Shown here piece by piece: positions 11,399-59,329 of a DNA stretch of 64,000 nucleotides. The stretch's first letter is position 1; every line of letters begins with the position of its first letter. A program made the translations under genes and the position numbers. The stretch is from an uncultured candidate division Zixibacteria bacterium. Lineage in GTDB: Bacteria; Zixibacteria; MSB-5A5; UBA10806. The stretch is taken from assembly GCA_963801605.1 (NCBI GenBank), contig CAWDFP010000006.1, positions 1,536,001-1,600,000 on the forward strand. The letters are read 5' to 3'. The notes beneath the pieces were generated by a model, which had not been told where the DNA came from, searched no databases, and saw nothing but the letters and a program-made list of their open reading frames with translations.

Positions 11399-12653
11399 AT
11401 GCGGCAGAAAATTCCTTATGACGGCGCTTTGGTGGATATCAATTTCCCCAAGAGCGCCGTTGTTTTGAGAGCCCAAAAAATTTCCTCTCTTAAGCGATGA
11501 TGCCGTCAGGGACAAAATTGCCGCCGGTATTATTGACTTTCCCCATTCAGCCAAAGGCCAAAAAACATCTATTGTTATAAATGATGCCACCCGGCGCCTG
11601 CCAACTCCTAAGATACTCCGCTTCTTGTCGGAAATGATTCCGCTTTCGGATGCCGAAATTATTATCGCCACCGGCACCCATCGCGCTCCCTTAAGCGATG
11701 AATATCGATATTATGCTGGGCGATATGCGCCCCTTTTTCGAGGGCAGAATCATCGTTCATGACAGCAAAAATAAATCTTCGCTCGATTATCTGGGGGAGA
11801 CCTCGCGCGGAACGCCGGTCTGGATAAATAAAAAACTGAGTCTATCTGAGAGAATCATCTGCATCAACTCCGTCGAACCTCATTTTTTCGCAGGTTTTAC
11901 CGGAGGACGAAAATCGCTGATACCGGGCTTGGCGGGTTTCGATACCACCGTTGCCAATCACAGTCATGCCAAGCATGAGGATGCTAAAAGCTTGAATCTC
12001 GCCTCGAATCCGGTGCACCTCGATCTCGAGGAAGCCGTTTCTTTTATTAAAGGTAAGAATATATTTTCGATTCAACTTGTTACTTCGCGCCAGGGAGAAA
12101 TCGTCGATTTGTTCTGCGGAATCTTGTCTCAGAGTTTCCGTGATGCCTGCGATAAAGCCCGCGATGTTTATACAGTTGATATTGAGAATAAATACGATAT
12201 TGTTTTCGCCATCGGCGAACCCCCGCTGGATATTAATTTATATCAGCTTCAAAAAGGTCAGGAGCATGGCGCCGAGGCTGTCAAAGATGATGGAATTTTA
12301 ATCGTTGTCGGTGCCTGTAATGAGGGAAGTGGCTCAGATTATTTTATTAATCTGGCCTCAGGATTATCCCGACACCGAACTCGGCTCTTTCAGCTAAAGC
12401 CTTGGCAGACAATCGCTTCGGGATACACAAATTGGTCAAGACCGCCCGACGGTTGCGTCAACATAAAAATCTGGTATGTTACGAAATTAGATGACAGCCT
12501 TATCTCCAAAGTGTATTTTAGTCCCAAGAGTTCGATGCAAGCGGCATTAGATGAGGCGCTTGAAATAAAGGGGCCGAGGCGCCAAAATTGCGATACTTAA
12601 GGGATGCATGTTTCATTGTACCTATTTTAAATAATTCTAAAGGAGGCAATTGA
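11399..12653 (+). CDS. LarA-family nickel-pincer-dependent 2-hydroxyacid racemase/epimerase (several indels)
   Basis: Reconstructed IVINDATR and [29 protein letters not shown]...ANHS and PLDINLYQ..K motifs; GAGG SD before ATG 11399. Confidence 0.85.
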
Positions 12654-13582
12654 TGAGAAAGAAAGTTGCGATCATTGGCGCGGGTCATGTCGGCGAGAGC
12701 ACTGCCATGTATCTGGCCGAAAAAAATATCTGCGATATCGTAATGGTTGATATCATCGAAGATATGCCCAAGGGGAAGGCCCTTGATCTGGCTCAGGCCG
12801 GTCCGATTCGCGGCTATGATGTCTCGATTCGTTGGTACCAATAATTTCGCCGATATCAAAGGCTCCGAATTAGTGGTGGTCACATCCGGGATTGCGCGCA
12901 AACCCGGCATGACACGCGAAGATCTCAGCAAAACCAACGCCGCCATTATCGACTCTGTCGCCGACGAAATTAAAAAGAATTGTCCCAAGGCCATGGTTCT
13001 CATGGTAGCCAATCCACTCGATATCATGACCTATCATTGCTGGAAGAAACTTGGTTTCGATAACAAAGTCGTATTCGGACAGGCCGGCGTTCTCGATTCC
13101 GTTCGTTTCCGCACATTTGTCGGCTGGGAACTCGGCGTTTCTCCCAATGATGTTCAGGCGATGGTTCTCGGCGGCCATGGCGATACTATGGTCCCGCTGC
13201 CTCGTTATACTACGGTCGGCGGCGTGCCAATTACCGAGCTTATTGCTCCCGATCGAATTAAAGCCCTTTCAGATCGCACCAGAAACGGCGGTGGCGAGAT
13301 TGTAAAGCTGCTCAAGAGCGGCTCTGCCTATTACGCTCCCGCGGCGGCCACCGTTGAAATGGTCGATGCCGTTATGAACGATCACAAGCGCATCATGCCT
13401 TGCTCGGCTTATCTGACAGGCCAATACGGTATCAAGGATCTCTATATTGGCGTACCTGTTGTTCTTGGCGCCAATGGCGTGGAAAAGATTATCGAACTCA
13501 AACTCGACAAAGACGGAACTTGCCGCGCTCCAGGCCTCTGCTAAGACGTATAAGGAAATGTTGTCTGATATTAGGATATTAG
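12653..13582 (+). CDS. mdh: LDH-like malate dehydrogenase (indels near 12830 and 13515)
   Basis: [50 protein letters not shown]. Confidence 0.95.
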
Positions 13583-13639
13583 AATGTTAGCGTGCAGTCG
13601 GCAATTGCCGGACTGCCCAATAAATCAAGGAGAGATAAA

Positions 13640-15292
13640 ATGGGTAAAACCCTGGCTGAAAAAATTCTGAGCAGCCATTCGGGCGGGATGTACCGCCGGC
13701 GAGATTACGATCGCCAAAGTCGATCTCTGCCTGCTGCAGGATGGCACCGGGCCTCTGACTATCCGCCAGGTGGAGAAGTTGGGGGTAACGAAACTGGCCA
13801 ATCCTCAAACGTACGGTTTTCTTTTTGGATCACGCCTCGCCCGCGCCGCGCAAGGAGCTTTCCAACGATCACATGTTCATCCGGCAATTTGCCGCCAAAA
13901 TGGGTGCGCATCTCGTCGATGTCGGCAGAGGAATCTGCCATGTGGTCATTAATGAAAAATTTGTCAATCCCGGCGAGATCCTGATCGGCGCCGATAGCCA
14001 TACCTGCACCGGTGGCGCGCTGGCTTGTTTCGCGACCGGAATGGGTTCCACCGATGTCGGTATCGGAATGGCCTATGGTAAAACCTGGTTCCGCGTACCG
14101 GAGACATTTAAAATTTATGTGACCGGCGAATTTCCGCTGGGCGTATTCCCCAAGGATTTGATTCTGCATCTTATCGGCCTGATCGGTGCCGATGGCGCAA
14201 CCTACAAATCGTTGGAATTCTGCGGACCGACTATCGATAAGATGGATATGTCGGGACGGTTTACGCTTTCGAATATGGCGGTCGAGGCCGGCGCCAAGGT
14301 CGGACTTATTGCCTCCGATGAAACCACTCGCGCCTATCTTGAGAATATGGGTCGCGGCGATAAATATATCCCGCTTAAGGGCGACGATAACGCCGAATTT
14401 GAACGCGTGATCGAAATCGATGTTTCCAAGCTTACGCCCACGGTCAGCTTCCCGCATACCGTCGATAATACTCGCACCATCGAGGAGGCGGTCGGCACCA
14501 AAATCGATCAGGTTTTCCTCGGTACCTGTACCAATTCCCGAATTGAGGATTGGGAAGTTGTCGCCAAAATGATTAAAGGGAAAGAAAAAAGCGCGCGAAT
14601 ATCCGCTTCATCGCTGTGCCCGGTTCTGAGGATGTCTTAAAGGAAGCAATTTCCAGAGGGTACTATCAAACCTTAATCGAATTTGGCGCCGTAATGGTCA
14701 CACCCGGCTGCGGTCCTTGCGTAGGAATCCACGAGGGCGTGCCCGGTGACGGTGAAGTCCGTACTTTCGACTCAGAATCGTAATTTCCAGGGACGAATGG
14801 GCAATCCTGAATCTTCGATTTATCTGGCTTCACCGGCAACCATTGCGGCTACCGCTATCGAGGGCAAACTCGCCGATCCCGAAAATATGTCAAGGAGCTT
14901 CAGAGTATCGGACATCCGGATGTGATCGACACCGAGGCCTTGAAAGCCCTGGCTAAATCCGCTCAGAAAACAGTCGAACGCGTTGCGATGGATACCGCCG
15001 CATATCTGGGCCCGGCCGCCAAAGATGCTTCCGTGAAAGTTGAGGGCATGGCCAGGAAGGCGATTAGCGATTATGCTCCCAAAGCGCAGCAGGCCGCCAA
15101 AGAGTTTGAATCCAAACTTATCCAAACTAACTTCGGACGTTTCTAAAGCGGTAAAGGATGCCTTAAAATCCAAATCTGCCCCGAAAGCCGGGAAAAAGCT
15201 AGCCCGTAAAAAGATAACTGCCAGCACCAAAAAAAGCGCATCAACCAAAACGCCGCAAGGCCGTCAAAGCCAAGCGTGTGACGAAAAGGTAG
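13640..15292 (+). CDS. LeuC/homoaconitase-type aconitase-family large subunit, probably with a long C-terminal extension (multiple indels)
   Basis: [51 protein letters not shown]...ADP(RKY); the end at 15292 is reconstructed across indels. Confidence 0.85.
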
Positions 15293-15302
15293 GAGGTGAA
15301 AT

Positions 15303-15802
15303 ATGCTTAAGGGAAAAGCCTGGAAATTCGGCGATGGAATTTCGACTGATCATATCGCTCCCGGACGGTATTTTCATCTTCGTTCCAATATGCCGGAATT
15401 GGCCAAACATGTTTTGGAGGATGCCGATCCTGAATTCGCCTCCAAAATGACTCCCGGCGATTTTGTTGTCGGCGGCAAGAACTTTCGGATTGGGATCATC
15501 GACGTGAGCATGCTCCGACCATCATCAAAATGGCTGGGGTATCGGCCGTACTGGCGAAATCGTTTGCGCGGATTTTCTTCCGTAATGCGGTCAATGTTGG
15601 CTTGCCGGTTCTCATCTGCGATACGGATAAAATCAACGCCGGCGATCAGCTCGAGGTTAATCTTGAATCCGGCGAGATTCACGATCTCACCAACGGCCAG
15701 AAACTTGATTTCAAACCGTTGCCAAAATCGATGATCAGAATTTTGAACGATGGCGGCCTGATCGCCCATTTACAAAAACACGGCGATTTTAAGCTGGATT
15801 GA
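15303..15802 (+). CDS. LeuD/homoaconitase-type small subunit (indels near 15490-15530)
   Basis: GKAWKFGDGISTDHIAPGRY, GKNF, AKSFARIFFRNAVNVGLP, GGLIAHL; AGGAGG SD. Confidence 0.9.
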
Positions 15803-15813
15803 TTAGTTATTTC

Positions 15814-15923
15814 GTAACCGGGGGACCACTATGGTCCCCGGTCATTTAGGCTGTCACCTTTGTAGGTCAAAACCCCTTGGCGGTTTTGACAAACCTGTGT
15901 GGGTCGGATTCCGAAAATTCGAC
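15814..15923 (+). repeat. REP-like hairpin cluster
   Basis: ACCGGGG..CCCCGGT (15814-15842), GTAGGTCAAAACC..GGTTTTGAC (15862-15890), degenerate GTGGGTCGGATT..AATTCGAC (15899-15923). Confidence 0.7.
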
Positions 15924-15955
15924 AAAAAACTAAAACCAAATACTTGCAAACAACT

Positions 15956-16147
15956 ATGTTCAAAAATTTTTCACGAATTCTCTGGGGCCTGGTTTTTATC
16001 GCTATAGGCATTGCCTTGCTGATGGATCGATTCGGATATATCGTATTTGATCTGGGCAACTTCCTGCATAACTGGTGGCCCTTGATCCTGGTCATTATCG
16101 GCTTGGGAATGATACTCGATAAAGCGCCTGAAAAACGGACGAAGTAA
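15956..16147 (+). CDS. Small two-TM LiaI/LiaF-like (DUF5668-like) membrane protein
   Basis: ILWGLVFIAIGIALL...NWWPLILVIIGL. Confidence 0.7.
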   Translation: MFKNFSRILWGLVFIAIGIALLMDRFGYIVFDLGNFLHNWWPLILVIIGLGMILDKAPEKRTK

Positions 16148-16149
16148 TC

Positions 16150-16732
16150 ATGCCTGTTGGCCGGGATTATCGATTTGGCGGCAGACTCCTTGCCGGGATT
16201 ATCATCATCTTTCTCGGCTTGCTTTTTCTTCTGGGCAATATCTATCCCGAATTCGATGCCGCGCGCTACCTTGGAAAACTCTGGCCGCTTATCATAATCG
16301 TTATCGGACTTTATCTGATTTTCCACCAGGCGCGCCGACAGACATCATATTTTTATAGGGGGATCATCAGGCCGCAACCGGGTTGTCGGTGATATCGATC
16401 TTGATTATTCTAATAAAGAAATCGGTAATGCCGATGCTTCCCAGATCGTGGGTGATCTTAAAATCAATTATTCCGGCGGCCATCTCAAACCTGGCATAAA
16501 TCATTTTACCATCTCCATGATTGTCGGAGATACTCTCCTGATAGTCCCGGCGGCGTTTCCCTTGAGAATTTCCGCCAGAACTATACTTGGAGATATTCAA
16601 ATCGATGGTCAACGCCAGGAGGGCTTTCTGCCCCGATTGGAACACCTGGATAGCAATTACCAAACCGCCGAGAGCAAACTATTTATCACCATAAATAGTA
16701 TCATCGGCGATATGACCGTCAGGAGATCATGA
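16150..16732 (+). CDS. LiaF-related membrane protein with C-terminal beta-rich domain (indel near 16360)
   Basis: GIIIIFLGLLFLL...KLWPLIIIVIG followed by repeated xGDxxI strands (VGDLKI, IVGDTLL, LGDIQI, IIGDMTV). Confidence 0.7.
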
Positions 16733-16739
16733 ATTCGGT

Positions 16740-16778
16740 GTAGGTCGGGTTCCGAGTCCCTTGGACGAGAAACCCGAC
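16740..16778 (+). repeat. GTAG REP-like hairpin
   Basis: GTAGGTCGGGTTCCGAGTCCCTTGGACGAGAAACCCGAC, near-identical to the copies at 5372, 23123 and 32057. Confidence 0.85.
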
Positions 16779-16834
16779 AATGAAACTTGAATATAATCGA
16801 TAATTAACACAACTCGCATCACATTGGAGGAGAA

Positions 16835-18078
16835 TTGAAATTCAAAAAACTTGAAATCCCTGCGGAGGGTACGCCAATAAAAATCGTCGGTAATAAAATT
16901 AAGGTACCTGACGATCCCATCATTCCTGTTATCGAGGGCGATGGCATCGGCCCCGATATCATGCGCGCCACCCGACGAGTGGTGGATTCTGCGGTGGAGA
17001 AAATGCTATGGCGGCAAAAAACGTATCGTTTGGTTTGATATCTATGCCGGTGATGCCGCTAACGAACGCTATGGCGAATACCTGCCAAAAGACACTCTCG
17101 ATGCTATCAAAACTTATATCGTGGCTCTCAAAGGCCCGTTGACTACTCCAATCGGAGGCGGCTTTCGTTCCCTTAACGTCACCCTGCGACAGGTGCTTGA
17201 TCTCTATGCTTGCGTCCGGCCGGTTCGCTACTTCACTGGCGTTCCTGCGCCGGTAACTCATCCCGAACGAATGAATGTCGTCATCTTCAGGGAAAATACT
17301 GAGGACGTTTACGCCGGTATTGAATGGCGCAAGGGAACTAAGGAAGCCCGAAAAATAATCAGCTTCATTAAAAGTGAGATGGGGATTAAGATTCGCACCG
17401 ATTCAGGCATCGGCATCAAACCAATGTCGGACTTCGGCACCAAACGTCTGGTGCGCAAAGCCATTAACTATGCTCTGGAAAATAACCGCAAATCGGTGAC
17501 CCTGGTACACAAGGGTAATATCATGAAATATACCGAGGGCGCTTTCCGCGACTGGGGTTATGAATTGGCTAAAGAGGAGTTCGCTAAGAAAACCATCACC
17601 GAAACCGAGCTTGACTGAAAAATATAATGGCGAAATTCCGGCAGGTCGCATCGTAATCAAGGATCGTATCGCCGATTCCATGTTCCAACAGATTCTCACC
17701 CGCACCGATGAGTACGAAGTTCTGGCCACTCCCAATCTAAACGGCGATTATCTTTCTGACGCTTGTGCCGCTCAGGTTGGCGGTCTCGGAATGGCTCCGG
17801 GCGCCAATATCGGCGATTTTATAGGGTTGTTCGAGGCTACTCACGGCACCGCGCCCAAGTATGCCAACAAAGATATGATTAATCCTGGTTCGTTGCTGCT
17901 TTCGGCGGTTTTGATGCTTGAATATCTTGGCTGGAACGAGGCTGGCCATGCTATTGAAAATGCGATTGAAAAAACGATCATGCAAAAAACCGTAACCTAC
18001 GATCTCGAACGTCAAATGGCCGGAGCCACCAAGGTTTCAACCTCGCAATTTGGAACCCACATCATCGCAAATTTATAG
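16835..18078 (+). CDS. icd: NADP-dependent isocitrate dehydrogenase (indels near 17000 and 17610)
   Basis: [65 protein letters not shown]. Confidence 0.96.
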
Positions 18079-18107
18079 AAAAGTTATAAAATTGAATTCC
18101 GTTTTTC

Positions 18108-18138
18108 GCCGGGGACGACTTCGCTCCCCGGTTTTTAT
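18108..18138 (+). terminator. Intrinsic terminator after icd
   Basis: CCGGGGA/TCCCCGG stem followed by TTTTTAT. Confidence 0.75.
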
Positions 18139-18153
18139 ATGGGTTGTAAGCCC

Positions 18154-18297
18154 ATTGCGAGGTCGCTTCGACCGTGGCAAACTAAGTCTATTGTAGGTCA
18201 AGACTGAGCTTTACCCGATAAATTGGGTGTCATAATTTATTATGACCCCAATTTGTTTGTGGTGTCGGGTCCCCGAACCCGACACATACAGCGGTCA
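18154..18297. repeat. Hairpin mosaic including copy 1 of a roughly 74-bp direct repeat (18224-18297)
   Basis: TGGGTGTCATAATTTATTATGACCCCAATT followed by GTGTCGGGT..ACCCGACAC; repeated at 19029-19101. Confidence 0.8.
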
Positions 18298-18759
18298 ACT
18301 ATCCTTTTTTGATTCTAAATGCGATAGAATCCTCAGCATCAGCTCATTCTGATTTTCGAGGTGCAGCAGGATCGCCTCGATTTCTCGTTCTGCTTTCACG
18401 TTTACCTCAAAATCGGTCTCGGCCCGGATTTCCGCGTGACGTCCCTGTAAATTCTGGCCAATCATTATCAGCGGCATCAGGAAAATCTGTAACATATTGG
18501 ATATAAACAGCCAGAGTACAAACGCCGGGAACGGGTCGAATCGCAGCCCTTGAGGCGCTAACGTGTTCCAGCCCAGCCAGAGTGCGGTCCAGGCGAAAAT
18601 CACAAAGAAAAATCCCATTGTGCCGATATGCTCGGTGACGACCAGCGAGAATTTCTCAAGTCTGGTGAGAGTCTCCTGATGCGCGATATTGGCGTTCTTT
18701 ATGGGCGTACGCAGTTTGATTAGTTCCGCATGTGACAGCCTCTGCGGTTTGGTATCCAT
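18295..18759 (-). CDS. DUF1003-like membrane protein
   Basis: IGTMGFFFVIFAW..W, FDPFPAFVLWLF, PLIMIGQN, DFEVNVKAE; GGAGGAG SD before ATG 18759. Confidence 0.85.
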   Translation of the reverse strand: MDTKPQRLSHAELIKLRTPIKNANIAHQETLTRLEKFSLVVTEHIGTMGFFFVIFAWTALWLGWNTLAPQGLRFDPFPAFVLWLFISNMLQIFLMPLIMIGQNLQGRHAEIRAETDFEVNVKAEREIEAILLHLENQNELMLRILSHLESKKDS

Positions 18760-18908
18760 TTCTCCTCCAGCGATTAGGCGGCAATCCAAGCAAGCGTTAT
18801 CAATCATTTCAGATATTGTGATTCATTACTTAAGATATAGATTGCCATATTGCAACCGCTTTTTGACAGGCCGCCGCACCCGCCCTACCCGTGGACACTC
18901 CGTGTGCC

Positions 18909-19124
18909 GTTGTTCGTGGTGACGGGTCCCCGAACCCGACACATACAGCAGTAGGTCAGGTGCCCCGGCACCTGACAAACAGGTAAAAAGAGTCAGGTCG
19001 CAGGCGACCTGACCTACGTAGGCTAAACTGGGTGTCATAATTTATTATGACCCCAATTGTTCGTGCTGTCGGGTCTCCGTACCCGACACCTATAGTGGTC
19101 AGGTTCGGGGACCTAACCGCACAG
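18909..19124. repeat. Dense REP mosaic containing an inverted GTAG pair (REPIN-like) and direct-repeat copy 2
   Basis: GTAGGTCAGGTGCC..GGCACCTGAC (18951-18976) facing GTCAGGTCGC..GCGACCTGACCTAC (18992-19017); repeat copy at 19029-19101; GGTCAGGTT..ACCTAACCGC. Confidence 0.8.
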
Positions 19125-19140
19125 AATTAAGTTTATTTAA

Positions 19141-21218
19141 TTATTTCTGCTTAGTAAAGAGCGCCTTTAGAGGCTGGACTAGGATTAATCTTTCCTTTTC
19201 GTTCGTTATGAAACGAAATAATATAGATACTCCAATAAATATGGCCGTAAAATATTCCCAGAAATTTGCGGCTTTCTGAAGCAAATTACTTCCTTCAGCA
19301 TAAATATTTGTAATATACAGCATTAATAATTCTATAATAATTAATAATGTAATAGAAAATGCCAATTTATTTTGGCCTGAACGTTTAGAATCTTCGTATT
19401 CTTGCTTTGTTTCCAAATCCTTTAACTTTTGATTAAGATGATCGATTTCAGATCCCTTAATATTAATTTGTTCTTGTAACTTGTTCTCTCGTGATGAAAA
19501 TTCTACCGCTGCTTCTCCTAGGAGCTTTTCATAATAGGCCCTAATTTCTGATTTTTCGCCTTCTAACTTTAATATATCTTGCTTATACTGCCTATCAGAA
19601 CTTGCAAAAAACTTAGAAACTTCATACATGAGTTTTTCTCGATCCCTTGGATCGTGGGGATTCAACTTAGGCGCTTTCGTTTTAATATATTTTATACATT
19701 GCTCTACATCCTTTGCGGGCAAATTTTTACAGGTCATATGCATATCGTGAAAGATTTCAAAATCCTCCAGCACAAAAAATCTATCTTGGGGTAACAATTT
19801 AAATTTTAGTAATTCCGAAAATATTGCCGATACTTCGCAGTCGTCTTCGTCCGGTAGGAAGAGCGGAGATACCCATTGAATGAAGGTATCAAGGCTCAGC
19901 GCAGGAGAAGTTTCTAATGAGTTGATTAAAACTCCTGTTAAAGAAGTATCTGCCGTTATTACCCAAGCATTGCCCTTGATACTCTTTTTAAATTTAGCTG
20001 CCCAAAGCAATAGTTTGGAATCATGAATTGCACTTCCGCTCCTTTTTGGGAAATTTCCCTAATTGGAAATTTCGATGCTGCAAGACTGCCGCGAACTTTT
20101 TTATTTCATTAGATTTATCAGCATCTATAAACCATTTGTCATCATCCAACTCAATTGCACAGCCATTTTTAAGAATTTCCATTGGGTTTTCAAAATTTTT
20201 AAATAAATCTTCAATTTCAGGTTGTTCACCTTTTTCGATTTTCGATAAATAAATTTCGTAAAAAAGGGATCTTATTTCTTTTGATAATTCTTTGGGTATT
20301 TGATCTAAAGCATTAATTAAAAGAGTCCGCTGATGTTGTATCCATCCCCTTAGTTCATCCAATGAAATTTGGCATATTTTTATTTTAATTCCTAACTGCT
20401 TGCAGGCTTTAGCAAAAAGGCAATAACTATAATAATTCCGGTGGGTAGGTTCTAGTGCAGAAATTATAATATTTGTATCTAGATATAATGTTGATTTCTG
20501 GAATATTTCTTTAGAAATTAAATCGGTAGCTGAATCCATGCCAATTATTTTTGATACGAAATAATTTTGCGCGATTCTCCATTTTAATTCGTCATATGCC
20601 GGATCTACGGTTTCAAAAAATAGCAAAACTGCTTTTTCCAATATTTTAATGTCTATCAATTCATATTTAACTTTAACCTTTTCCAAGGCAGATTGGATCA
20701 AGGCCATTCCCACTAATTGATTTTTATTTATTTCTCCTGTAATTAGGTACGCACTATCTTCTCCTAATTTACTAAAAATATGGCAGATACTTAAAAGAAA
20801 TGGTTCATTATATGAATAATGATTTTCTACTGACTCTCCAAATAATCGTTTAACCACCCCATTCAAGTGGGTTTCTGCTTGATGCTCTATTGCTGTAATT
20901 TGGGTCCTTCTCTGTTCTGTCAATCGATATGCTTTGTTCCCATTAAGCGACTGGGGCGCTATGCAATTCTTGGCGACAAGTCTGTCAACTACCAGCTTAA
21001 TGGTCATTTGATCGATGTGATATCCTCCGGTTTGTTTCGCGAATTCCTTTTTGCATTTCAACAATATCAATCGGATTTGGATTAGCTAAAGCAAAAAGGA
21101 TATGTTCTATAGCTCTTTCTAAAGCAGTTTCCTTGATAGCTTGCGTTTCGGGAGAAAATCTGAATTTGGTTGATAAAAGCATTGCCTTTGTTTTGTCATT
21201 TTCAGATGAAGGGGGCAT
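19141..21218 (-). CDS. AT-rich large protein with PIN-like nuclease motifs, a coiled coil and two C-terminal TM helices (indels near 21060 and 20030)
   Basis: Three consecutive minus-strand ORFs join; LYLDTNIII...SLDEL...IHD...WVITADTSL acidic pattern; hydrophobic C-terminal segments. Confidence 0.65.
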
Positions 21219-21423
21219 TTAAACCTCAAATAAAAATTAATTTTATTTACAAATAAACACAAATTTATTCTTAAGCAAGATGCGATAAAAGAAATAATCC
21301 CCCCATTATGCCATATATTATTGGATAATTGAAAAGTCGTGTCAAGCAATTTCTTTGCTTATAATAATCATTATGGCGCAAAAATAATACCCTTCGCCAA
21401 GAAAACAAGTACTGAATAAACCG

Positions 21424-21552
21424 GCAGCGGTCAGGTTCGGAGACCTGACCGCACAGTTAGGCATAGGATACATGATTATCTCGGTCCAATGGACTTCGGA
21501 AAGAATGCCACCCCATGCAATAGGGGCGAGGGATTCGAACCCCCTCGCCTTC
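21424..21552 (+). repeat. Two REP-like hairpins
   Basis: GCGGTCAGGT..ACCTGACCGC (21427-21452) and TAGGGGCGAGGG..CCCTCGCC (21521-21549). Confidence 0.65.
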
Positions 21553-21600
21553 CCACAAACCCCTTGACTTACCCGCCCCAAATCTTTATCTATCCACGTT

Positions 21601-22194
21601 ATGGAGGATAATCTCGCCCCCCGGATTGCGGCCATTATAGGCTTGGGTAACCCGGGACGAGATTACGAGAAGACCCGGCATAACCTCGGTTTCGAGGTGG
21701 TCGATCTTCTGGCGGGCAACGCGCCATTCGTTGCCGGTAAAGGCAGTTACTACATCTGCCAGACAACCGTGGCCTCCATGGAAATCGTTCTTTTAAAACC
21801 GACCACGTACATGAATCGCTCCGGGTTGGCTGTCGCATCTTTCGCCGAAACGCTCGGCCTGACACCATCGCAGATACTGGTTATCGCCGATGATTTCAAT
21901 CTCCCCTTTGGGCAGATCAGGCTTCGCAAAGACGGCACCGATGGCGGCCACAAGGGTTTGGCCTCGATCATCTACTACTTAGCCTCCACCGATTTCCCGC
22001 GTATAAGATTGGGAGTCGGCCCGGTGCCGGAGGATACGCCGGCAGTGGATTTTGTCCTGGAGCGCTTCTCCGATAGCGACCGTCCCACCGCCGATGAGAT
22101 GATCAAACGATCAGCGGAGGCGAGCCTTACGTGGTTAAAAGAAGGCTATGATGTTGCCGCGGCCCGCTTCAATCGGGCCATAGAAGAAAACTAA
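21601..22194 (+). CDS. pth: Peptidyl-tRNA hydrolase
   Basis: GLGNPG..YEKTRHNLGF, KPTTYMNRSG, GGHKGLASI. Confidence 0.97.
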   Translation: MEDNLAPRIAAIIGLGNPGRDYEKTRHNLGFEVVDLLAGNAPFVAGKGSYYICQTTVASMEIVLLKPTTYMNRSGLAVASFAETLGLTPSQILVIADDFNLPFGQIRLRKDGTDGGHKGLASIIYYLASTDFPRIRLGVGPVPEDTPAVDFVLERFSDSDRPTADEMIKRSAEASLTWLKEGYDVAAARFNRAIEEN

Positions 22195-22207
22195 AGATGC
22201 GCAAGCA

Positions 22208-22281
22208 GCGCGTCTCCCTACTCCGTCGCAATTAGAGTTAACGCGAACGGGGTCGAGTTTAACAGTCCAGAGGGAGGTTTC
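22208..22281 (+). ncRNA. Probable S6:S18 ribosomal protein leader (autogenous regulatory RNA)
   Basis: In the 5' UTR of rpsF; CTCCCT can pair with the SD-containing AGGGAGG and a CTCCGT/ACGGGG inner stem follows, matching the known architecture. Confidence 0.6.
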
Positions 22282-22644
22282 ATGAGGCTCTACGAGCTTA
22301 CTGTAATCATCAATCCTACGCTCGACGATACCACCGTCCAAAGCGAAATCGACAAAATCGAAAAACAGATAACCGGCGGCGGCGGACAGATCGAAAAGAT
22401 CGACCGCTGGGGCATGCGGCGTTTCACCTACCGCATCCAGGGCCACCATCAGGGCCTCTATGTCCTGTTTATCTACAAGGCTAATTCCAGCCTTAATCTG
22501 GAGATTGAGCGCGCTATCAGACTCAATGAGAATATCCTGAGATATCTAACCATCCTGTCGCCGGGGATCGCCCCGCCCAAGCCGATTAAGGTAGTCGATG
22601 ATGATGATGGGCGTTTTGAGGATTTTCCGCGTGATCGTGAGTAA
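22282..22644 (+). CDS. rpsF: 30S ribosomal protein S6
   Basis: MRLYELTVIINP, DRWGMRRFTYRI, NENILRYL. Confidence 0.96.
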   Translation: MRLYELTVIINPTLDDTTVQSEIDKIEKQITGGGGQIEKIDRWGMRRFTYRIQGHHQGLYVLFIYKANSSLNLEIERAIRLNENILRYLTILSPGIAPPKPIKVVDDDDGRFEDFPRDRE

Positions 22645-22674
22645 GATTCCTCAATATTAAACGTGAGAGGGATT

Positions 22675-23088
22675 ATGACGTTGACGAGATTGCCGAATTT
22701 AAATCGCGTGATGATCGTGGGTAATCTGACCAAAGACCCGGAGCTCAGGTCCACCACCACCGGTGTGCCCGTAGTCAATTTCCGGATTGCATCCAATCGC
22801 CGTTTCAAGGATAACTCCGGGGAATGGAAAGAGGATGTGTGTTATGTCGGAGTAGTCGCCTGGCAAAAGCTGGCCGAATCCTGCTCCACCAGGCTCAAGA
22901 AGGGAAGCGCCGTCTATGTCGAGGGCGAACTGCGCTCGCGCACCATGGATCACGACGATGGTTCCCGTCACAGCTTGGTTGAAATTCGCGCTCATCACAT
23001 TCAGTTTCTGGATAAATCCGAGCGCTTCGATGAGATTAAAGGTTTCGAGGACGGCGATGAGCTGCTCGAAGCCAATGGGTTGGACTAA
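22675..23088 (+). CDS. ssb: Single-stranded DNA-binding protein (short form)
   Basis: LNRVMIVGNLTKDPELR, VVAWQKLAE, KKGSAVYVEGELR; located between rpsF and rpsR. Confidence 0.92.
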   Translation: MTLTRLPNLNRVMIVGNLTKDPELRSTTTGVPVVNFRIASNRRFKDNSGEWKEDVCYVGVVAWQKLAESCSTRLKKGSAVYVEGELRSRTMDHDDGSRHSLVEIRAHHIQFLDKSERFDEIKGFEDGDELLEANGLD

Positions 23089-23122
23089 AGAGTTGCGAGT
23101 TACGAGTTATTAAAGCGCAACT

Positions 23123-23161
23123 GTAGGTCGGGTTCCGAGTCCCCGGGACGAGAAACCCGAC
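23123..23161 (+). repeat. GTAG REP-like hairpin within the r-protein operon
   Basis: GTAGGTCGGGTTCCGAGTCCCCGGGACGAGAAACCCGAC. Confidence 0.85.
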
Positions 23162-23207
23162 AAAACGTGATTAGCAGATGAATTATTACTTTCTTGAAGG
23201 AGAATAA

Positions 23208-23432
23208 ATGGAAAGACGTAGAAGAAAAGTATGCCGGTTTTGCGAAAGCAAAGCCACCTTTATCGATTATAAGGACGATCGCCTGCTGCGCAGGTTCATC
23301 TCCGAACGCGGCAAGATCATCCCCCGTCGGGTAACAGGAAATTGCGCCAAGCATCAGAGACAGCTTACCACCGCCATCAAGCGCGGACGTATCCTGGCGC
23401 TGCTGCCGTACACCTCGGAATCCCGCGACTAA
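23208..23432 (+). CDS. rpsR: 30S ribosomal protein S18 (Zn-ligand form)
   Basis: [30 protein letters not shown]. Confidence 0.97.
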
Positions 23433-23448
23433 GGTCACCATACGGCTG

Positions 23449-24445
23449 ATGTCATCCGTTGAATCCAGAATATTTCTCTGGGGCGGAGTTGCCGTAGGCG
23501 GCTCCGGCCTGCTGTGGATCGTTCCCGGTATTAATGCGGTCTTCTCCGTGGGCGCCATTGCCGCGCTGGTGCTGATCGTTTCGCGATTGGGCTACCTGCG
23601 CGCCTTGTGGGCCGCGCTGGGAGGATTAATCATGGTCATGGCTACCACTACGTTTGCCATGGGTGAGGCTGTCGGAATGCTCAACGCCGCAGTCTTTGCC
23701 ATAGCGGTATTGGCTCCGGGATTCATGATGGGCATGGCCTCCCGAGGACTGTTCTCAGCGGTTAAGACAATCTGGTACGGTTCCATCCCGATTTTAATTC
23801 TCTTCGGTTTACTTCTGACATTCTATTCGACTCTGATAAGCAGCGTTCCATCGATTACCCGTCAGGTCAATACAATCATGGAAACGAGCCTCGATCAAAG
23901 TCCGGTGGCATCAAAGATGCTGATCGATAAATACGGAGCAGAGGGAGGCAAAGAGAAATTTCTGGCAGATCTGGACCAGTATATTGTCTTTTTTATCAAG
24001 GTAATACCAGGAACAATCGTAATCGGATTTTTGACGATCATAATCATCAGCCTGTACGCTGGCGGGAAATATCGGTACGAGGATAAGCCTGATGATTCCT
24101 CGGCTGCAGCCGTTTTATCTCTGGCATGCCAGCGATTGGTGGCTGATACCTACCGCCCTTGGACTGGCCCTGACTATTTTCGTCACGAACGATTTCTGGC
24201 GCTATTTTGGCATAAATATTCTGGTCGTAACAGGCAATGTTTACGCCATAGCCGGGTTGGCAGTGGCGGCGGCTTTTATGCGGCGCCTGGCAATCCCGAT
24301 GCCATTGCGGGTGGCATTCTATTTGGTTTTGTTTTTCATGTCTTTTGTGGGTCTGCTCTCGCTGGCAATCCTGGGATTGGCAGACAGCAGATTTCGCTTC
24401 CGGCGCGAAACTCCGGAAGAAAAAGATGATTCGCAAGAAAATTGA
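23449..24445 (+). CDS. YybS/DUF2232-like membrane protein (indel near 24065)
   Basis: Polytopic hydrophobic protein between rpsR and rplI; ends LGLADSRFRFR. Confidence 0.75.
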
Positions 24446-24463
24446 TAGTATAAAGGAGCAAGT

Positions 24464-24925
24464 ATGAAGGTTATTCTCAGAGATGATGTTGAGAAATTAG
24501 GGACGACGGGCAATATCGTCACCGTGGCTGACGGTTACGCCCGCAATTTTCTGTTCCCGCGAAACCTGGCGGTGCCCGCCACTAAAGGCAATGTCAGGTC
24601 TATCGATGAAATCAAAAAACAAAAGCAGTTCCGTGAGAATAAAAAGAAGAAAGACGCCCAGCGTCTCAAAGACCGCCTCGAAAAGCTGTCGCTGACCGCC
24701 GAGGTCCAGACCGGTGAGGAAGATAAGGTCTTTGGATCGGTCACGGCCGCCAATATCGCCACCCTTCTGGAAAAGCAGGAGTTCGCGATTGACCGCCGGA
24801 AGATCATGCTGGAAGAACCACTCAAAGCTCTCGGTGTTTATACCATCGAAATTAAACTGGCGCCGGACGTGGTTGCCAGCGTAAAACTATGGGTGGTTAA
24901 AAAGGAAGAACCGGAGCAGTCTTAA
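24464..24925 (+). CDS. rplI: 50S ribosomal protein L9
   Basis: MKVILRDDVEKLG..VADGYARNFLFP, KVFGSVT. Confidence 0.97.
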   Translation: MKVILRDDVEKLGTTGNIVTVADGYARNFLFPRNLAVPATKGNVRSIDEIKKQKQFRENKKKKDAQRLKDRLEKLSLTAEVQTGEEDKVFGSVTAANIATLLEKQEFAIDRRKIMLEEPLKALGVYTIEIKLAPDVVASVKLWVVKKEEPEQS

Positions 24926-24938
24926 AAAGGAGTAGTAT

Positions 24939-26729
24939 CTGCGTTATCTCGATGGCAAAAGGCTTCGCAAGGCGGTTAACGCCGGTTGGCAGTGGCTCAA
25001 TCATCATCGGGAAAGGTTGGATGCCATTAATGTCTTCCCGGTAGCCGACGGCGATACCGGTACCAATATGTCCCAGACCCTGCGTTCTGCGGCGCTGGGC
25101 GCCAATTCGGCTAAATCGAACTCCTTAGCCGACGTGGCCGATTCGATCGCGCTTTATTCGCTTCGCGGCGCTCAGGGTAATTCGGGAGTTATACTCTCGC
25201 AATACTTCAAGGGTGTCGCCGAATATATCGGCAATCGCAAGCGCCTGTATGCTGAGGACCTGGCTGCAACTTTCGCCGCCGGAGCCGAATCGGCATACAA
25301 GGCGGTCAGAGAACCCCGCGAGGGCACCATACTCACAGTCCTGCGCGAGATGGCCGTGCATACCGAAGAAACCAAGACTCGTCATAAAGGCATGAGCCAG
25401 ATGCTTGAATCCGCTATCGAGCATGGCAAGCGCACTCTGGCATCGACCAAATACAAACTGAAAGCTTTATCCGATGCCAACGTTGTCGATGCCGGCGGCC
25501 TGGGGTTTGTGCATTTTATGGAAGGCATCCATCACCTTATTAAAAAAGGTGAATACGAAAAGGATGTATCGCTGGAATCATCCGAACCCAACATTCCGGA
25601 AAAAATCGAAAAGTACACTCGTTATAGATTCTGTTCGGAGTTTTTGGTTAAAGGGTTTGACTATGATATCGACGCCATCCGGCAGAGTCTCGAGGGCGCC
25701 GGTGATTCCCTGATCGTGGCCGGAACCGCTTTTGGAAACGATTCGTATCTCAGGATTCATATCCACACCGACCGTCCGGATGATGTTGAGGCGCTGGCAA
25801 AATCTATAGGCGTGCTCGAAAAGCGCAAAGTCGAGGATATGCTTGCTCAGAATGAGGCGATGCGCAGTTGGCGCGCCCGTTATCGCGGGAATGCCGTCCG
25901 AACCATCAGGATAGTATCCGATTCGACTTGCGATCTCCCCGCCGAGGTGGCTGCCTTTCACGATATCGAGATCGTGCCGCTTAAGGTAGCTTTCGGCGAT
26001 GAAATCTATCGGGATGGTGTCGATCTGGACAATCATTCCTTCTACGAAAAATTGACCCTTTCGAAAATTACACCCAAGACATCGCAGGCCACACCATCGG
26101 AATTTGAAGAGCGATATACTGAAATGCTCGATAGGGGAGACTGCGATCAGATTTTATCGATTCACATTTCGTCTAAATTATCAGGCACCTATAATTCGGC
26201 GTTATCAGGCGCCAAAGGGCTTAAGGTTACTTGCTTTGATTCCGGTACAGTCTCTCTCGGTTTGGGATTAATGGCCATCGCCGCGTCGGAACTTGCCAGG
26301 GAGGGAAAAAGTCTTGATGAAATTCTCGCCCGGCTTGAGCTGATGAAAAAAAATCAGGGATTGTTTTTTACCCTGGGAACCATCGATTATCTCATCAAAG
26401 GCGGTCGGGTTGGCAAGGCGCGCGGCTATCTGGGACGGTTTCTGGGTTTGAAACCAATACTGACTTTACAGGATGCCGAGGTCAAACCGGTAGCCAGAGT
26501 CAGAAGCGAAGAAAAAGCGCTGGCGAAAATTATTTCGCTTTTGCCGGAAAATGGGCATGGTTACCGGTGGGCAGTGGCCCACGCCAGTTACCCGTCGGAA
26601 ATAGAGCTAATCAAGGAGATTTTAAGGGAACGATTTGGCGCTAATGACGTTTTAGCAGGTGAAATAGGCCCCACGGTCGGGACTCATATCGGCCCGGGTT
26701 CATGGGGAATATTCTACATGAGAGGTTGA
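24939..26729 (+). CDS. DAK2/DegV fusion (fatty acid kinase FakA-like plus FakB-like)
   Basis: INVFPVADGDTGTNM, GNSGVILSQ, VDAGG; then DSTCDLP, SSKLSGTY, GGRVG, VGTHIGPG; the frame is open upstream to CTG 24939. Confidence 0.9.
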   Translation: MRYLDGKRLRKAVNAGWQWLNHHRERLDAINVFPVADGDTGTNMSQTLRSAALGANSAKSNSLADVADSIALYSLRGAQGNSGVILSQYFKGVAEYIGNRKRLYAEDLAATFAAGAESAYKAVREPREGTILTVLREMAVHTEETKTRHKGMSQMLESAIEHGKRTLASTKYKLKALSDANVVDAGGLGFVHFMEGIHHLIKKGEYEKDVSLESSEPNIPEKIEKYTRYRFCSEFLVKGFDYDIDAIRQSLEGAGDSLIVAGTAFGNDSYLRIHIHTDRPDDVEALAKSIGVLEKRKVEDMLAQNEAMRSWRARYRGNAVRTIRIVSDSTCDLPAEVAAFHDIEIVPLKVAFGDEIYRDGVDLDNHSFYEKLTLSKITPKTSQATPSEFEERYTEMLDRGDCDQILSIHISSKLSGTYNSALSGAKGLKVTCFDSGTVSLGLGLMAIAASELAREGKSLDEILARLELMKKNQGLFFTLGTIDYLIKGGRVGKARGYLGRFLGLKPILTLQDAEVKPVARVRSEEKALAKIISLLPENGHGYRWAVAHASYPSEIELIKEILRERFGANDVLAGEIGPTVGTHIGPGSWGIFYMRG

Positions 26730-26731
26730 CT

Positions 26732-27230
26732 ATGGACGAAGGCAAGATGGTAAAATCACAGATCGGGGGGTTGGCCCTGGATGTTACCACCAATTCTCCT
26801 GTCATTACGATATCGCCAATAGGATCGGAAAAGATTTTGCCGATATGGATCGGGCACTACGAGGCCTGGGCAATCGGTATGGAAATCTCCGGCATCGCCT
26901 CCAAGCGCCCCTTGACCCACGATCTCATGTATAGCGTAATTAAGGCTATGGGGGGCACCGTAGAAAAAATCGAAATAACTGATCTTCGGGAACAGACATT
27001 TTTCGCGGTCATTACAGTGAAAGCTCGATGGCAAATCGATCGGTATCGATGCCAGGCCATCGGATTCACTGGCTCTGGCGCTTAAAGCTAAAGCCCCGAT
27101 ATTTGTCAATGAGAACCTCTTCAATCTGAAAAAGGAAGAGAGGGAAAGCTCAGGCATGCCCGATCAGGAAACACTGCGGGATCGGTTGCGAAAAATTAAT
27201 CCAGAGGATTTCGGCAATTATAAATTATGA
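26732..27230 (+). CDS. Bifunctional nuclease family protein (DUF151) (indel near 27030)
   Basis: LPIWIGHYEA, RPLTHDL, reconstructed IDARPSDSLALAL. Confidence 0.88.
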
Positions 27231-27733
27231 TAATCCCTTATAATGGGAAAAGTCCGGTTATCGCAGAGGGATGCTTCATTGCTCCCGATAGCGTGATTAT
27301 CGGTGATGTCGCCATAGCGTCAGAATGCTCAATTTGGTTCGGAGCGGTTATACGAGGCGATATCAACTGGATTAAAATCGGAAGTTATACAAATATTCAG
27401 GATAACTGCGTGATTCATGTCACCGGCGGGACAGCGCCGACCGATATTGCCGATCATGTCACAGTTGGACATGGCGCTATACTTCATGGCTGCACCATTG
27501 AATCAGGTTGCCTGATCGGGATGGGCTCCATCGTTCTCGATAAAGCCGTTGTTGGCGAGGGTTCTCTGGTGGCGGCCGGCTCTGTGGTTAAATCCGGAAT
27601 GATTATTCCTCCTCACACTCTGGTGGCCGGAAATCCGGCAGTGATAAAGCGCAAAATCTCGAGCGATGAGAGGGAATATTTTATCGAATGGGCCAATAAT
27701 TATCGCGGTTATTCGAAAGGATTTCAGTTTTGA
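27227..27733 (+). CDS. Gamma-carbonic-anhydrase-family hexapeptide repeat protein
   Basis: IGDV..SIWFGAVIRGD, NIQDNCVIH, TVGHGAILHGC. Confidence 0.92.
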   Translation: MIIPYNGKSPVIAEGCFIAPDSVIIGDVAIASECSIWFGAVIRGDINWIKIGSYTNIQDNCVIHVTGGTAPTDIADHVTVGHGAILHGCTIESGCLIGMGSIVLDKAVVGEGSLVAAGSVVKSGMIIPPHTLVAGNPAVIKRKISSDEREYFIEWANNYRGYSKGFQF

Positions 27734-31624: not shown

Positions 31625-31882
31625 GTCCCCTTGCGGTATTGTAAGGGGGAGGTCCCGGGACCGATAATCCCGCCAGAAAGAAGGCGGGTAAACCCTTTAC
31701 AAGATGGGACCTGTCCTGACCTGCCTCCAGTTTCTCCTCTCTTTGGGGAGTCAAACTGACCTCCTGTGGGAGAAGCGATCCTGGCTGCCGGTTGAATCGA
31801 CGGCGATTCCGGGGGACCCCTGTGGATCCCGAGAGGACAGCCATCTGTAGGGAAGGTCTTGTGGCCACAATTGTCCTTCCAC
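31625..31882. other. GC-rich, highly self-complementary non-coding element (candidate ncRNA or degenerate REP mosaic)
   Basis: Several hairpins plus long-range pairing TACAAGATGG..CTGTCCT / AGGACAG.CCATCTGTA; no credible ORF. Confidence 0.45.
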
Positions 31883-32056
31883 TTATAAGCCTCTATAAAT
31901 CAAAATGCACTTTGAACGCGTTTTGGAGGATTTCAAGAGCGTGGAGGAAATTAGAGAAATCGGCGTTCACGGAGAGAGAGTTTTTTTCGAATTGGGCAAA
32001 AAGGGGAAGATGGCACTTAGAAAGAGACTAAATAACGTGTTTAGTATTAGATCGGT

Positions 32057-59313: not shown

Positions 59314-59329
59314 CACCGAAACTTAAGAT

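What the first reader, a model, noticed from the sequence alone, without database searches (positions are those of the whole stretch)
18154..21552. Two accessory genes each bracketed by direct copies of hairpin repeats: possible REP-mediated cargo capture
Seen: the DUF1003-like gene lies between two copies of a roughly 74-bp composite repeat (18224-18297 and 19029-19101), with a partial third copy at 18909-18950. Its TGA stop coincides with the point where copy 1 breaks off (CAGCGGTCA). The AT-rich PIN-like gene lies between direct copies of G(T/C)GGTCAGGTTCGG.GACCT.ACCGCACAG (about 19095-19124 and 21427-21456). Both genes run opposite to the flanking housekeeping genes icd and pth, and no integrase or transposase is present. 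Inferred: a cassette-like insertion hotspot where hairpin repeats act as recombination or HUH-nuclease (RAYT) sites.
Basis: partly seen in the sequence, partly recalled or inferred. Interest (0 to 1): 0.7.

Follow-up and report, generated by a model that had tools for sequence, protein, structure and literature searches.

The report
REP hairpins framing acquired genes
The hairpin repeats around these two patchily distributed genes are copies of short palindromes scattered through this bacterium's genome, of a kind that flanks a tyrosine-transposase gene in related genomes, and they likely served as entry points for the genes, although no movement of a gene-plus-repeat cassette has been shown.

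Summary
The repeats are not local. They belong to genome-wide REP/REPIN families, and the main family flanks RAYT genes in two relatives; this genome's three RAYT-like genes carry other repeats or none.

Both genes are accessory. DUF1003 has close orthologs in 4 of 285 genomes of the phylum. The PIN gene (one ~690-codon frameshifted gene, likely anti-phage) was found in 0 of 13 family relatives.

For REP-linked gene entry: a 645-bp repeat-plus-DUF1003 unit is duplicated elsewhere in the genome. Another foreign gene sits between a duplicated REP-plus-spacer. The main family borders AT-rich genes at 10 of 23 other sites, against 0 of 37 for five other families.

Against a dedicated cassette system: icd-pth is a rearrangement junction, not a conserved empty site. 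An IS3 end remnant marks the left border. Only 2 of 63 AT-rich islets are bracketed on both sides. The enrichment failed in one of two relatives. None of 18 PIN homologs elsewhere is hairpin-bracketed. No reads or strain-level empty sites were available.

The scan noted similar repeat-bracketed cargo in other genomes. Verdict: REP-rich gene-turnover site; RAYT-driven cassette mobility is plausible but unshown.

The parts
17560..18078 (+). 3' part of icd (isocitrate dehydrogenase), split from the 5' part by a likely assembly frameshift
   Evidence: PF00180; single 413-414 aa ORF in relatives
18109..18137 (+). Terminator-like hairpin plus T-run after icd
   Evidence: Fold z -2.7; function inferred
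18153..18180 (+). Degenerate palindrome of a minor repeat family (one more copy on C13)
18193..18204 (+). Left half of a GTAG-footed REP, cut at the IS insertion point
   Evidence: Whole copies at C6:1679471, C11:24847 and others
18205..18226 (+). Remnant of the left end of an IS3-family element, fused to the composite repeat over a short microhomology
   Evidence: 20 of 22 nt match the left end of the only full copy (C11:112681-113927, NF033516 E 2e-93), itself inserted in a REP stem with a 3-bp duplication; 0 matches in the reversed-genome control
18224..18297 (+). Composite copy 1: AT-loop hairpin (family B) + family-A REP + first 8-9 nt of the inverted partner REP, broken off at the DUF1003 stop
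18295..18759 (-). DUF1003 membrane-protein gene (154 aa from the ATG with a ribosome-binding site; ORF can extend to 18807)
   Evidence: PF06210; close orthologs in 4 of 285 phylum genomes
18224..18866 (.). 643-645-bp unit (composite repeat + DUF1003 + upstream region) duplicated at C13:29-673, 94% identical
   Evidence: 4/71 differences in the repeat, 31/465 in the gene (23 at third codon positions), 0/107 upstream
18867..18888 (-). Degenerate GTAG-footed sequence whose 3' end abuts the end of the duplicated unit
   Evidence: Read from sequence; REP identity inferred
18904..18950 (+). Copy 3: single family-A REP, 38 of 40 nt like copy 1
18951..19017 (.). Inverted doublet (REPIN) of GTAG-footed family C
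   Evidence: a similar family flanks a RAYT and a small gene in G006 (L071)
19029..19124 (.). Composite copy 2: family-B hairpin + complete inverted family-A doublet (19063-19089 plus; 19095-19122 minus)
19141..21218 (-). AT-rich (33-35% GC) gene of about 690 codons in three frames: winged-helix, PIN domain, coiled coil, C-terminal hydrophobic segments; likely stand-alone defence gene
   Evidence: model of homolog P0001 matches VapC/PIN and PadR folds weakly, E >= 0.025
21426..21456 (-). Single family-A REP, foot towards pth, tail towards the PIN gene
   Evidence: identical over 31 nt to C6:655765-655795
21525..21549 (+). Further degenerate hairpin upstream of pth; not called as tRNA or an Rfam family
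21601..22194 (+). pth (peptidyl-tRNA hydrolase)
   Evidence: PF01195

Best explanation
The interval is a cluster of genome-wide REP hairpins and REP doublets of RAYT-associated families around two accessory genes, and the genes likely entered by recombination at or beside these hairpins, likely started by RAYT nicking in trans. Shown: several REP families, the link of family A to RAYT genes in relatives, patchy distribution of both genes, a second copy of the repeat-plus-DUF1003 unit, and enrichment of family A beside AT-rich genes in this genome. Inferred: a RAYT cuts single-stranded REP DNA and joins it to other DNA, or leaves a break that is repaired with incoming DNA. This would copy one REP plus spacer on either side of the new gene, as around the gene after gyrB and as in the repeat-RAYT-repeat layout common in this family. 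The DUF1003 unit fits this pattern. The PIN gene fits it less well and may sit between two independently placed REPs. An IS3 insertion and a rearrangement also touched the site.
For: Family A flanks RAYT genes in G003 (L092, direct doublets) and G004 (L375, RAYT inside one doublet, while empty doublets of the same type occur elsewhere in G004). 18 of 30 RAYT loci (L071-L100) lie between direct repeats, 6 between inverted repeats only, 6 had no pair (my count). The unit is duplicated on C13 with the same composite at the gene's 3' end. The G004 ortholog, at an unrelated locus, lies between direct copies of a different REP family; only 3 of 547 ordinary-GC genes sampled in G004 have hairpins on both sides. 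After gyrB a 239-aa, 35%-GC gene lies between 48-bp direct repeats made of a REP plus a spacer found in no other copy of that family. G004 has a tandem doublet-gene-doublet-gene duplication of 876-bp period. Family A: 12 of 26 intergenic sites border a gene under 40% GC against 1.7 expected; outside this locus 10 of 23, against 0 of 37 for families D, E, F, H, I (Fisher p 1.5e-5). A scan not built on this locus gives 19 of 89 boundary spacers against 4.9 expected, and 9 of 31 against 2.7 in 800 kb of G008. TnpA-REP cleaves at C|T and joins a 3' C in vitro (PMC8266576, passages); in the C13 copy the gene/REP join reads C|T inside the REP arm, a weak fit.
Against: No RAYT flanked by families A, B or C was found in this 87%-complete genome; of 3 RAYT-like matches two carry other repeats and one none. 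No enrichment in 800 kb of G004 (0 of 33 against 2.3), and in G008 some low-GC positives are RAYT genes themselves. Two-sided bracketing is rare: 2 of 63 low-GC islets, 11 one-sided; 2 of 129 low-GC against 9 of 2536 other genes, p 0.10. 70 of 89 boundaries have no footed hairpin. 0 of 18 PIN-homolog loci examined are bracketed, and 2 of 2 DUF1003 orthologs outside the family have no hairpins. The PIN pair differs at 3 of 31 nt while the right copy equals an unlinked copy. Hairpins follow icd in 8 of 8 relatives shown, with or without extra genes (read by eye). Orientation bias did not replicate (4 of 11, 7 of 16). Published REPtrons do not appear to move as units (PMC3333891, PMC6006769, passages).
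Confidence: 0.47

Rival explanations
1. Passive co-location. REPs and foreign genes both pile up in tolerant spacers at operon ends. The genes came by ordinary recombination and REPs landed or spread locally around them afterwards.
For: REP clusters follow icd in relatives with and without extra genes. Family-A sites cluster (7 neighbour pairs within 4.5 kb against 1.2 expected), which local spread alone would give. PIN homologs move across phyla without hairpins. No enrichment in G004. Housekeeping genes such as a carboxyltransferase are also bracketed, by unlike families.
Against: Five other REP families in spacers of similar length never border AT-rich genes (0 of 37). The 48-bp duplication after gyrB includes a non-palindromic spacer found only in that pair, which two independent landings would not give. 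The composite travels with the duplicated DUF1003 gene.
Confidence: 0.28
2. An IS3-family element that targets REP stems made this site. It inserted after icd, drove the icd-pth rearrangement or brought the cargo, and was then deleted, leaving one end. The REPs are only its targets.
For: IS3 left-end remnant at the exact left border, inside a cut REP; the full element also sits in a REP stem. icd-pth is a junction not seen in relatives. IS3-family elements that target REPs are known (PMC1525189, passages).
Against: Only one end remains and no right end or other half of the cut REP was found beside pth. It does not explain the C13 copy, the gyrB-adjacent duplication or the G004 and G006 brackets, where no IS end was looked for or seen.
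Confidence: 0.17
3. RecA-type or microhomology recombination between dispersed REP copies, without any RAYT step, inserted and duplicated the genes.
For: Shared stretches of 31-79 bp; mosaic differences among the four composite copies; short microhomologies at the IS/B and gene/REP joins; no cognate RAYT found in this genome.
Against: Incoming foreign genes would need a matching REP already; the layout copies that of RAYT loci.
Confidence: 0.07
4. Integron cassette array, with the hairpins as attC sites.
For: Small genes between hairpins; one GTTRRRY-like word next to the last repeat (consensus recalled).
Against: No integron integrase over the cut-off (best 80.9 bits against 265); repeats are dispersed singly over the genome and flank RAYT genes in relatives.
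Confidence: 0.01

Closest known systems
REP/REPIN (BIME) elements with RAYT/TnpA-REP, REPtrons (PMC3333891, PMC6006769, PMC8266576, PMC3733652; passages read)
   Same: 20-30-nt palindromes with a GTAG- or GTGG-like 5' foot, inverted doublets, intergenic and dispersed, several families per genome, each tied to its own HUH-Y1 gene.
   Different: Low copy number (about 30 family-A sites against hundreds); feet include GTGC and GTGT; 2-21 RAYT-like matches per genome; in two of three genomes tested REPs are enriched at edges of AT-rich genes, whereas in Pseudomonas acquired regions are REP deserts (PMC3390384, passages); accessory genes sit in the layout usually seen for the RAYT gene.
REP-targeting IS3-family elements such as IS1397 and ISKpn1 (PMC1525189, passages)
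   Same: An IS3-family element inserted in a REP stem on C11, and its end remnant in a cut REP at this locus.
   Different: One full copy only, so target preference rests on two sites.
Non-autonomous passenger-carrying derivatives of insertion sequences (transporter IS, MICs, PATEs; recalled, no call)
   Same: A gene between transposase-recognition ends, moved in trans.
   Different: No fixed left and right ends, only two copies of one unit, and one end of that unit is not a shared repeat.
PIN-domain (VapC-like) nucleases, Pfam PIN_12
   Same: Conserved YLDTN motif and later aspartates; PF16289 in 15 of 30 homologs below the curated cut-off; weak fold matches to VapC.
   Different: About 680 aa with winged-helix, coiled coil and hydrophobic C-terminus; no PADLOC or NCBIfam family; activity untested.

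Membership tests
REP/REPIN | Short palindrome forming a ssDNA hairpin | tested here: met
REP/REPIN | Conserved 5' tetranucleotide foot (GTAG/GTGG) | tested here: met
   GTAG in family C; GTGG, with GTGC and GTGT variants, in family A
REP/REPIN | Multiple dispersed extragenic copies, often as inverted doublets | tested here: met
   20 exact core matches in G000, 0 in the reversed control; 26 intergenic sites; doublets
REP/REPIN | Same family flanks a RAYT gene | tested here: met
   In relatives G003 and G004; not found in G000 itself
REP/REPIN | Bound and cleaved by the cognate RAYT | not testable with these tools
   Needs in vitro assay
REPtron | RAYT gene between the REPs | tested here: not met
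   The enclosed genes are DUF1003 and a PIN protein
   No conspecific sequence; icd and pth have other neighbours in relatives
   DUF1003 unit at two loci shares the repeat end; the other end lies 28 bp from the end of contig C13. PIN gene single copy
   No run was listed
Integron | IntI integrase | tested here: not met
   genome 87% complete
Integron | attC sites by covariance model | not tested
   IntegronFinder not available; Rfam scan of 16000-24000 gave 0 matches
tRNA-targeted island | tRNA or att duplication at the border | tested here: not met
   Only tRNA in the window is at 59329

The most novel reading that the evidence does not exclude
In this lineage RAYT nucleases and their REP doublets form an integrase-free cassette system. 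Single accessory and anti-phage genes are inserted into REP doublets with duplication of one REP plus spacer, and can be copied or excised again, in the same layout as the RAYT gene itself. This would supply the host benefit that RAYTs are predicted to have but that has not been identified.
Probability: 0.22. Interest if true: 0.82.

Novelty: new variant of a known kind. Interest (0 to 1): 0.42.

Why it matters
Why hosts keep RAYT genes is stated as an open question (PMC5581495 and bioRxiv 10.1101/2021.07.10.451892, passages). If REP doublets are entry points for single foreign and defence genes, that gives a testable answer and an integrase-free route of gene capture. The G003 and G004 RAYT-REP pairs and the duplication after gyrB are ready substrates for an assay. 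If the link is passive, this is an ordinary REP-rich spacer in a little-studied phylum.

Tried and rejected
tRNA or known RNA in the interval: none. Integron: no integrase over the cut-off. A conserved icd-pth empty site: not found in family relatives. Closer relatives in metagenomes: best pth match 60%. Sequencing runs: none was listed, no RNA holder listed, so circles and frameshifts could not be checked. A general orientation rule (REP foot towards core DNA, tail towards foreign DNA): seen in G000 (18 of 23 single family-A matches, a set that still held two spurious matches and this locus's copies, p 0.002; 47 of 73 unbiased spacers, p 0.006), weak in relatives' family-A copies (20 of 31, p 0.03; singles 16 of 27, p 0.14; 5 of 36 dropped for short flanks), absent in G004 and G008 samples and not significant for the nearest hairpin (12 against 6); not claimed. 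PIN gene as a habitual REP cassette: 0 of 18 best loci bracketed (18 of 27 examined); a RAYT-like gene lies within 1 kb in 2 of them, with repeats around the RAYT only. Known defence family for the PIN protein: none. Reciprocal REP at the old pth position on C7: no footed hairpin. Literature: searches listed no paper on REP-bounded accessory cassettes or on REPs in Zixibacteria; the library lacks most subscription papers and I read no supplements, where REPtron lists (PMC3733652, PMC6006769) could hold such cases.
Full report
Observation. The DUF1003 gene (PF06210) ends with its TGA where copy 1 breaks off. The AT-rich gene is one gene of about 690 codons, 21218-19141, read in three frames. 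Its middle piece finds 46 full-length homologs of 644-707 aa at 29-43% identity, and an intact homolog maps across both large pieces. icd is also split, so the breaks are likely assembly errors; no reads were listed to check. The window is G000:C6:1536001-1600000 of an 87%-complete genome. Earlier scan notes call the organism Zixibacteria (not tested here).

What the repeats are. They are dispersed families, not a local feature. Family A (core GTCRGGTYYCCGWACCYGAC) has 20 exact matches in G000 and occurs in 9 of 13 family relatives, with 0 matches for the reversed control. Copies carry a GTGG, GTGC or GTGT foot and often pair as inverted doublets. The '74-bp composite' is a family-B hairpin, a family-A REP and the start of its inverted partner. 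The interval also holds a family-C doublet and other REP remnants. Family A flanks a RAYT gene in G003 as direct doublets and in G004, where the RAYT sits inside one doublet. These are therefore REP/REPIN elements in the sense of PMC6006769 and PMC3333891 (passages). G000 has 3 RAYT-like matches, one over the cut-off; two carry other repeat families and one has none. No integron integrase passes the cut-off, and no tRNA or Rfam family lies in the interval.

The genes are accessory. Close DUF1003 orthologs occur in 4 of 285 phylum genomes. The PIN gene was not found in 13 of 13 family relatives. Its relatives are spread over many phyla (27 loci). In some loci they neighbour DNA methyltransferases, DrmD-like helicases, a DUF1156 protein or transposases; in others they neighbour housekeeping genes (50 of 84 neighbours scanned). 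Homologs show PIN_12 below the curated cut-off in 15 of 30 and a conserved YLDTN motif. A model of one homolog (pLDDT 81) matches VapC and PadR folds only weakly (E >= 0.025). A stand-alone defence nuclease is my inference; no PADLOC family fits.

The site. icd and pth are not neighbours in relatives. In the 7 family loci visible (output partly cut) and in G006, pth follows a two-component operon that lies on C7 in G000. In G008 the pth block lies 27 kb upstream of icd. After icd, relatives have either the same convergent gene directly (G005, G008, G009) or one to three other genes first (G003, G004, G006, G007). Hairpin repeats follow icd in 8 of 8 relatives shown, read by eye, with or without extra genes. 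The same-genus genomes are only partly informative: G002's icd is not followed by pth within 17 kb, and contigs end beside G001's icd and G002's pth. So this is a variable spacer that became a rearrangement junction, not a conserved landing pad with a visible empty form. It sits inside a cut GTAG REP, and the only full copy of the IS is also inside a REP stem. REP-targeting IS3 elements are known (PMC1525189, passages).

Evidence that genes enter or move with REPs. First, 18224-18866 is repeated on C13 at 94% identity, composite included; 23 of 31 coding differences are at third positions. Second, the G004 ortholog lies at an unrelated locus between direct copies of another REP family, a state seen for 3 of 547 ordinary genes in the G004 sample. 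Third, after gyrB a 35%-GC gene lies between 48-bp direct repeats that include a spacer unique to that pair, the pattern expected when a gene is inserted into a doublet with duplication. Fourth, G004 has a doublet-plus-gene tandem duplication and G006 a doublet-gene-doublet-RAYT-doublet array. Fifth, 18 of 30 RAYT loci have this direct-repeat layout. Sixth, family A borders genes under 40% GC at 12 of 26 spacers against 1.7 expected; without this locus 10 of 23, against 0 of 37 for five other families; families B, C and G gave 3 of 9, 4 of 8 and 1 of 11. A scan for footed hairpins not built on this locus gave 19 of 89 against 4.9 and 9 of 31 against 2.7 in G008. Several of these neighbours resemble defence genes. 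In Pseudomonas, by contrast, acquired regions are REP deserts (PMC3390384, passages).

Evidence against a dedicated system. The enrichment was absent in G004 (0 of 33 against 2.3), and RAYT genes inflate the G008 count. Only 2 of 63 low-GC islets are bracketed on both sides and 50 have no repeat of the defined families. Bracketing of low-GC against other genes is 2 of 129 against 9 of 2536, p 0.10 (the split PIN gene is not counted there). The PIN pair is 90% alike while its right copy equals an unlinked copy. 0 of 18 PIN-homolog loci and 0 of 2 out-of-family DUF1003 orthologs are bracketed. The orientation bias seen in G000 did not replicate. These counts rest on my own simple gene caller, on GC as a proxy for foreign origin and on motif scans that miss some families, and spacers are not fully independent.

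Mechanism. Shown: REP identity by sequence and RAYT linkage, accessory status, one duplicated unit, local duplications, the IS remnant. Inferred: RAYT cleavage of single-stranded REP DNA and strand transfer, as shown in vitro for other TnpA-REP enzymes, which cut at C|T and accept a 3' C (PMC8266576, passages), or repair of such nicks with incoming DNA. In the C13 copy the gene/REP join reads C|T and shares four bases with the REP arm, and the G004 ortholog has its stop at the same codon without this REP. That fits either RAYT joining or microhomology repair. I give REP-sited entry 0.47, passive co-location 0.28, IS3-driven history 0.17, RAYT-independent recombination between REPs 0.07 and an integron 0.01.

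Novelty. The parts are known kinds. Published REPtrons do not appear to move as units, and RAYT's host benefit is left open (PMC3333891, PMC5581495, bioRxiv 10.1101/2021.07.10.451892; passages); a mobilome study found no circles from E. coli REP regions (bioRxiv 10.1101/2024.07.17.603846, passages). Searches listed no paper on REP-bounded accessory genes or on REPs in this phylum; supplements were not read. Earlier scan notes report similar repeat-bracketed cargo in other genomes and REP doublets in this one; they are unchecked leads, and two of them prompted the orientation test. I rate this a new variant of a known kind, interest 0.42, with a 0.22 chance of a true RAYT-driven cassette system.

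Noticed in passing
G000:C11:112681-113927 (L141:3182-4428): Complete 1247-bp IS3-family element inserted in the stem of a GTAG REP with a 3-bp duplication; the only full copy in the assembly.
   Followed up: yes
G000:C6:1070597-1071635 (L137:2098-3136): 239-aa, 35%-GC gene after gyrB between a duplicated REP plus spacer (48 bp), followed by a dense REP cluster. Cleanest example of a gene inside a REP doublet.
   Followed up: partly
G000:C6:1054717-1057161 and 1069371-1070522: gyrA (minus) and gyrB (plus) are about 12 kb apart and divergent, each with REPs at its 3' end; possibly an inversion.
   Followed up: no
window 31640-31930; also C2:122-410, C7:87262-87505, C7:368605-368800: A roughly 300-bp non-coding-looking element in four copies, lying among REPs; a diverged copy is at C11 near 44600-44900. 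Unexplained.
   Followed up: no
G000:C8:781-3007 and C11:110675-111553: PD-Lambda-5 A and B homologs (E 2e-87, 3e-110) and a PDC-S31 homolog (E 4e-59) in AT-rich islets that end at REPs; a TIR-domain gene at C6:654510-655559 likewise.
   Followed up: partly
L155:2203-3900 (G004:C7): Tandem duplication of a family-A doublet plus a 233-aa gene, period 876 bp.
   Followed up: partly
L071:898-2070 (G006:C4): Doublet, 144-aa AT-rich gene, doublet, RAYT, doublet, all doublets in direct orientation.
   Followed up: partly
family f1 genomes: All 14 genomes have RAYT-like genes, 2 to 21 matches each, most with their own REP family; far more than the one to four per genome reported for Pseudomonas and Stenotrophomonas (PMC3686654, passages).
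   Followed up: partly
window 18760-18866 against C13:29-135: The 107 bp upstream of DUF1003 are identical in the two copies while the gene differs at 31 of 465 sites; recent conversion or an assembly effect at the contig end.
   Followed up: no
window 12000-28000: Several core genes (icd, leu genes, the DUF2232 gene) are split by frameshifts, as expected from indel errors in the assembly.
   Followed up: partly
window 16739-16780 and 23122-23163: Two copies of another GTAG REP family (D, about 25 matches genome-wide) that never borders low-GC genes (0 of 13).
   Followed up: yes
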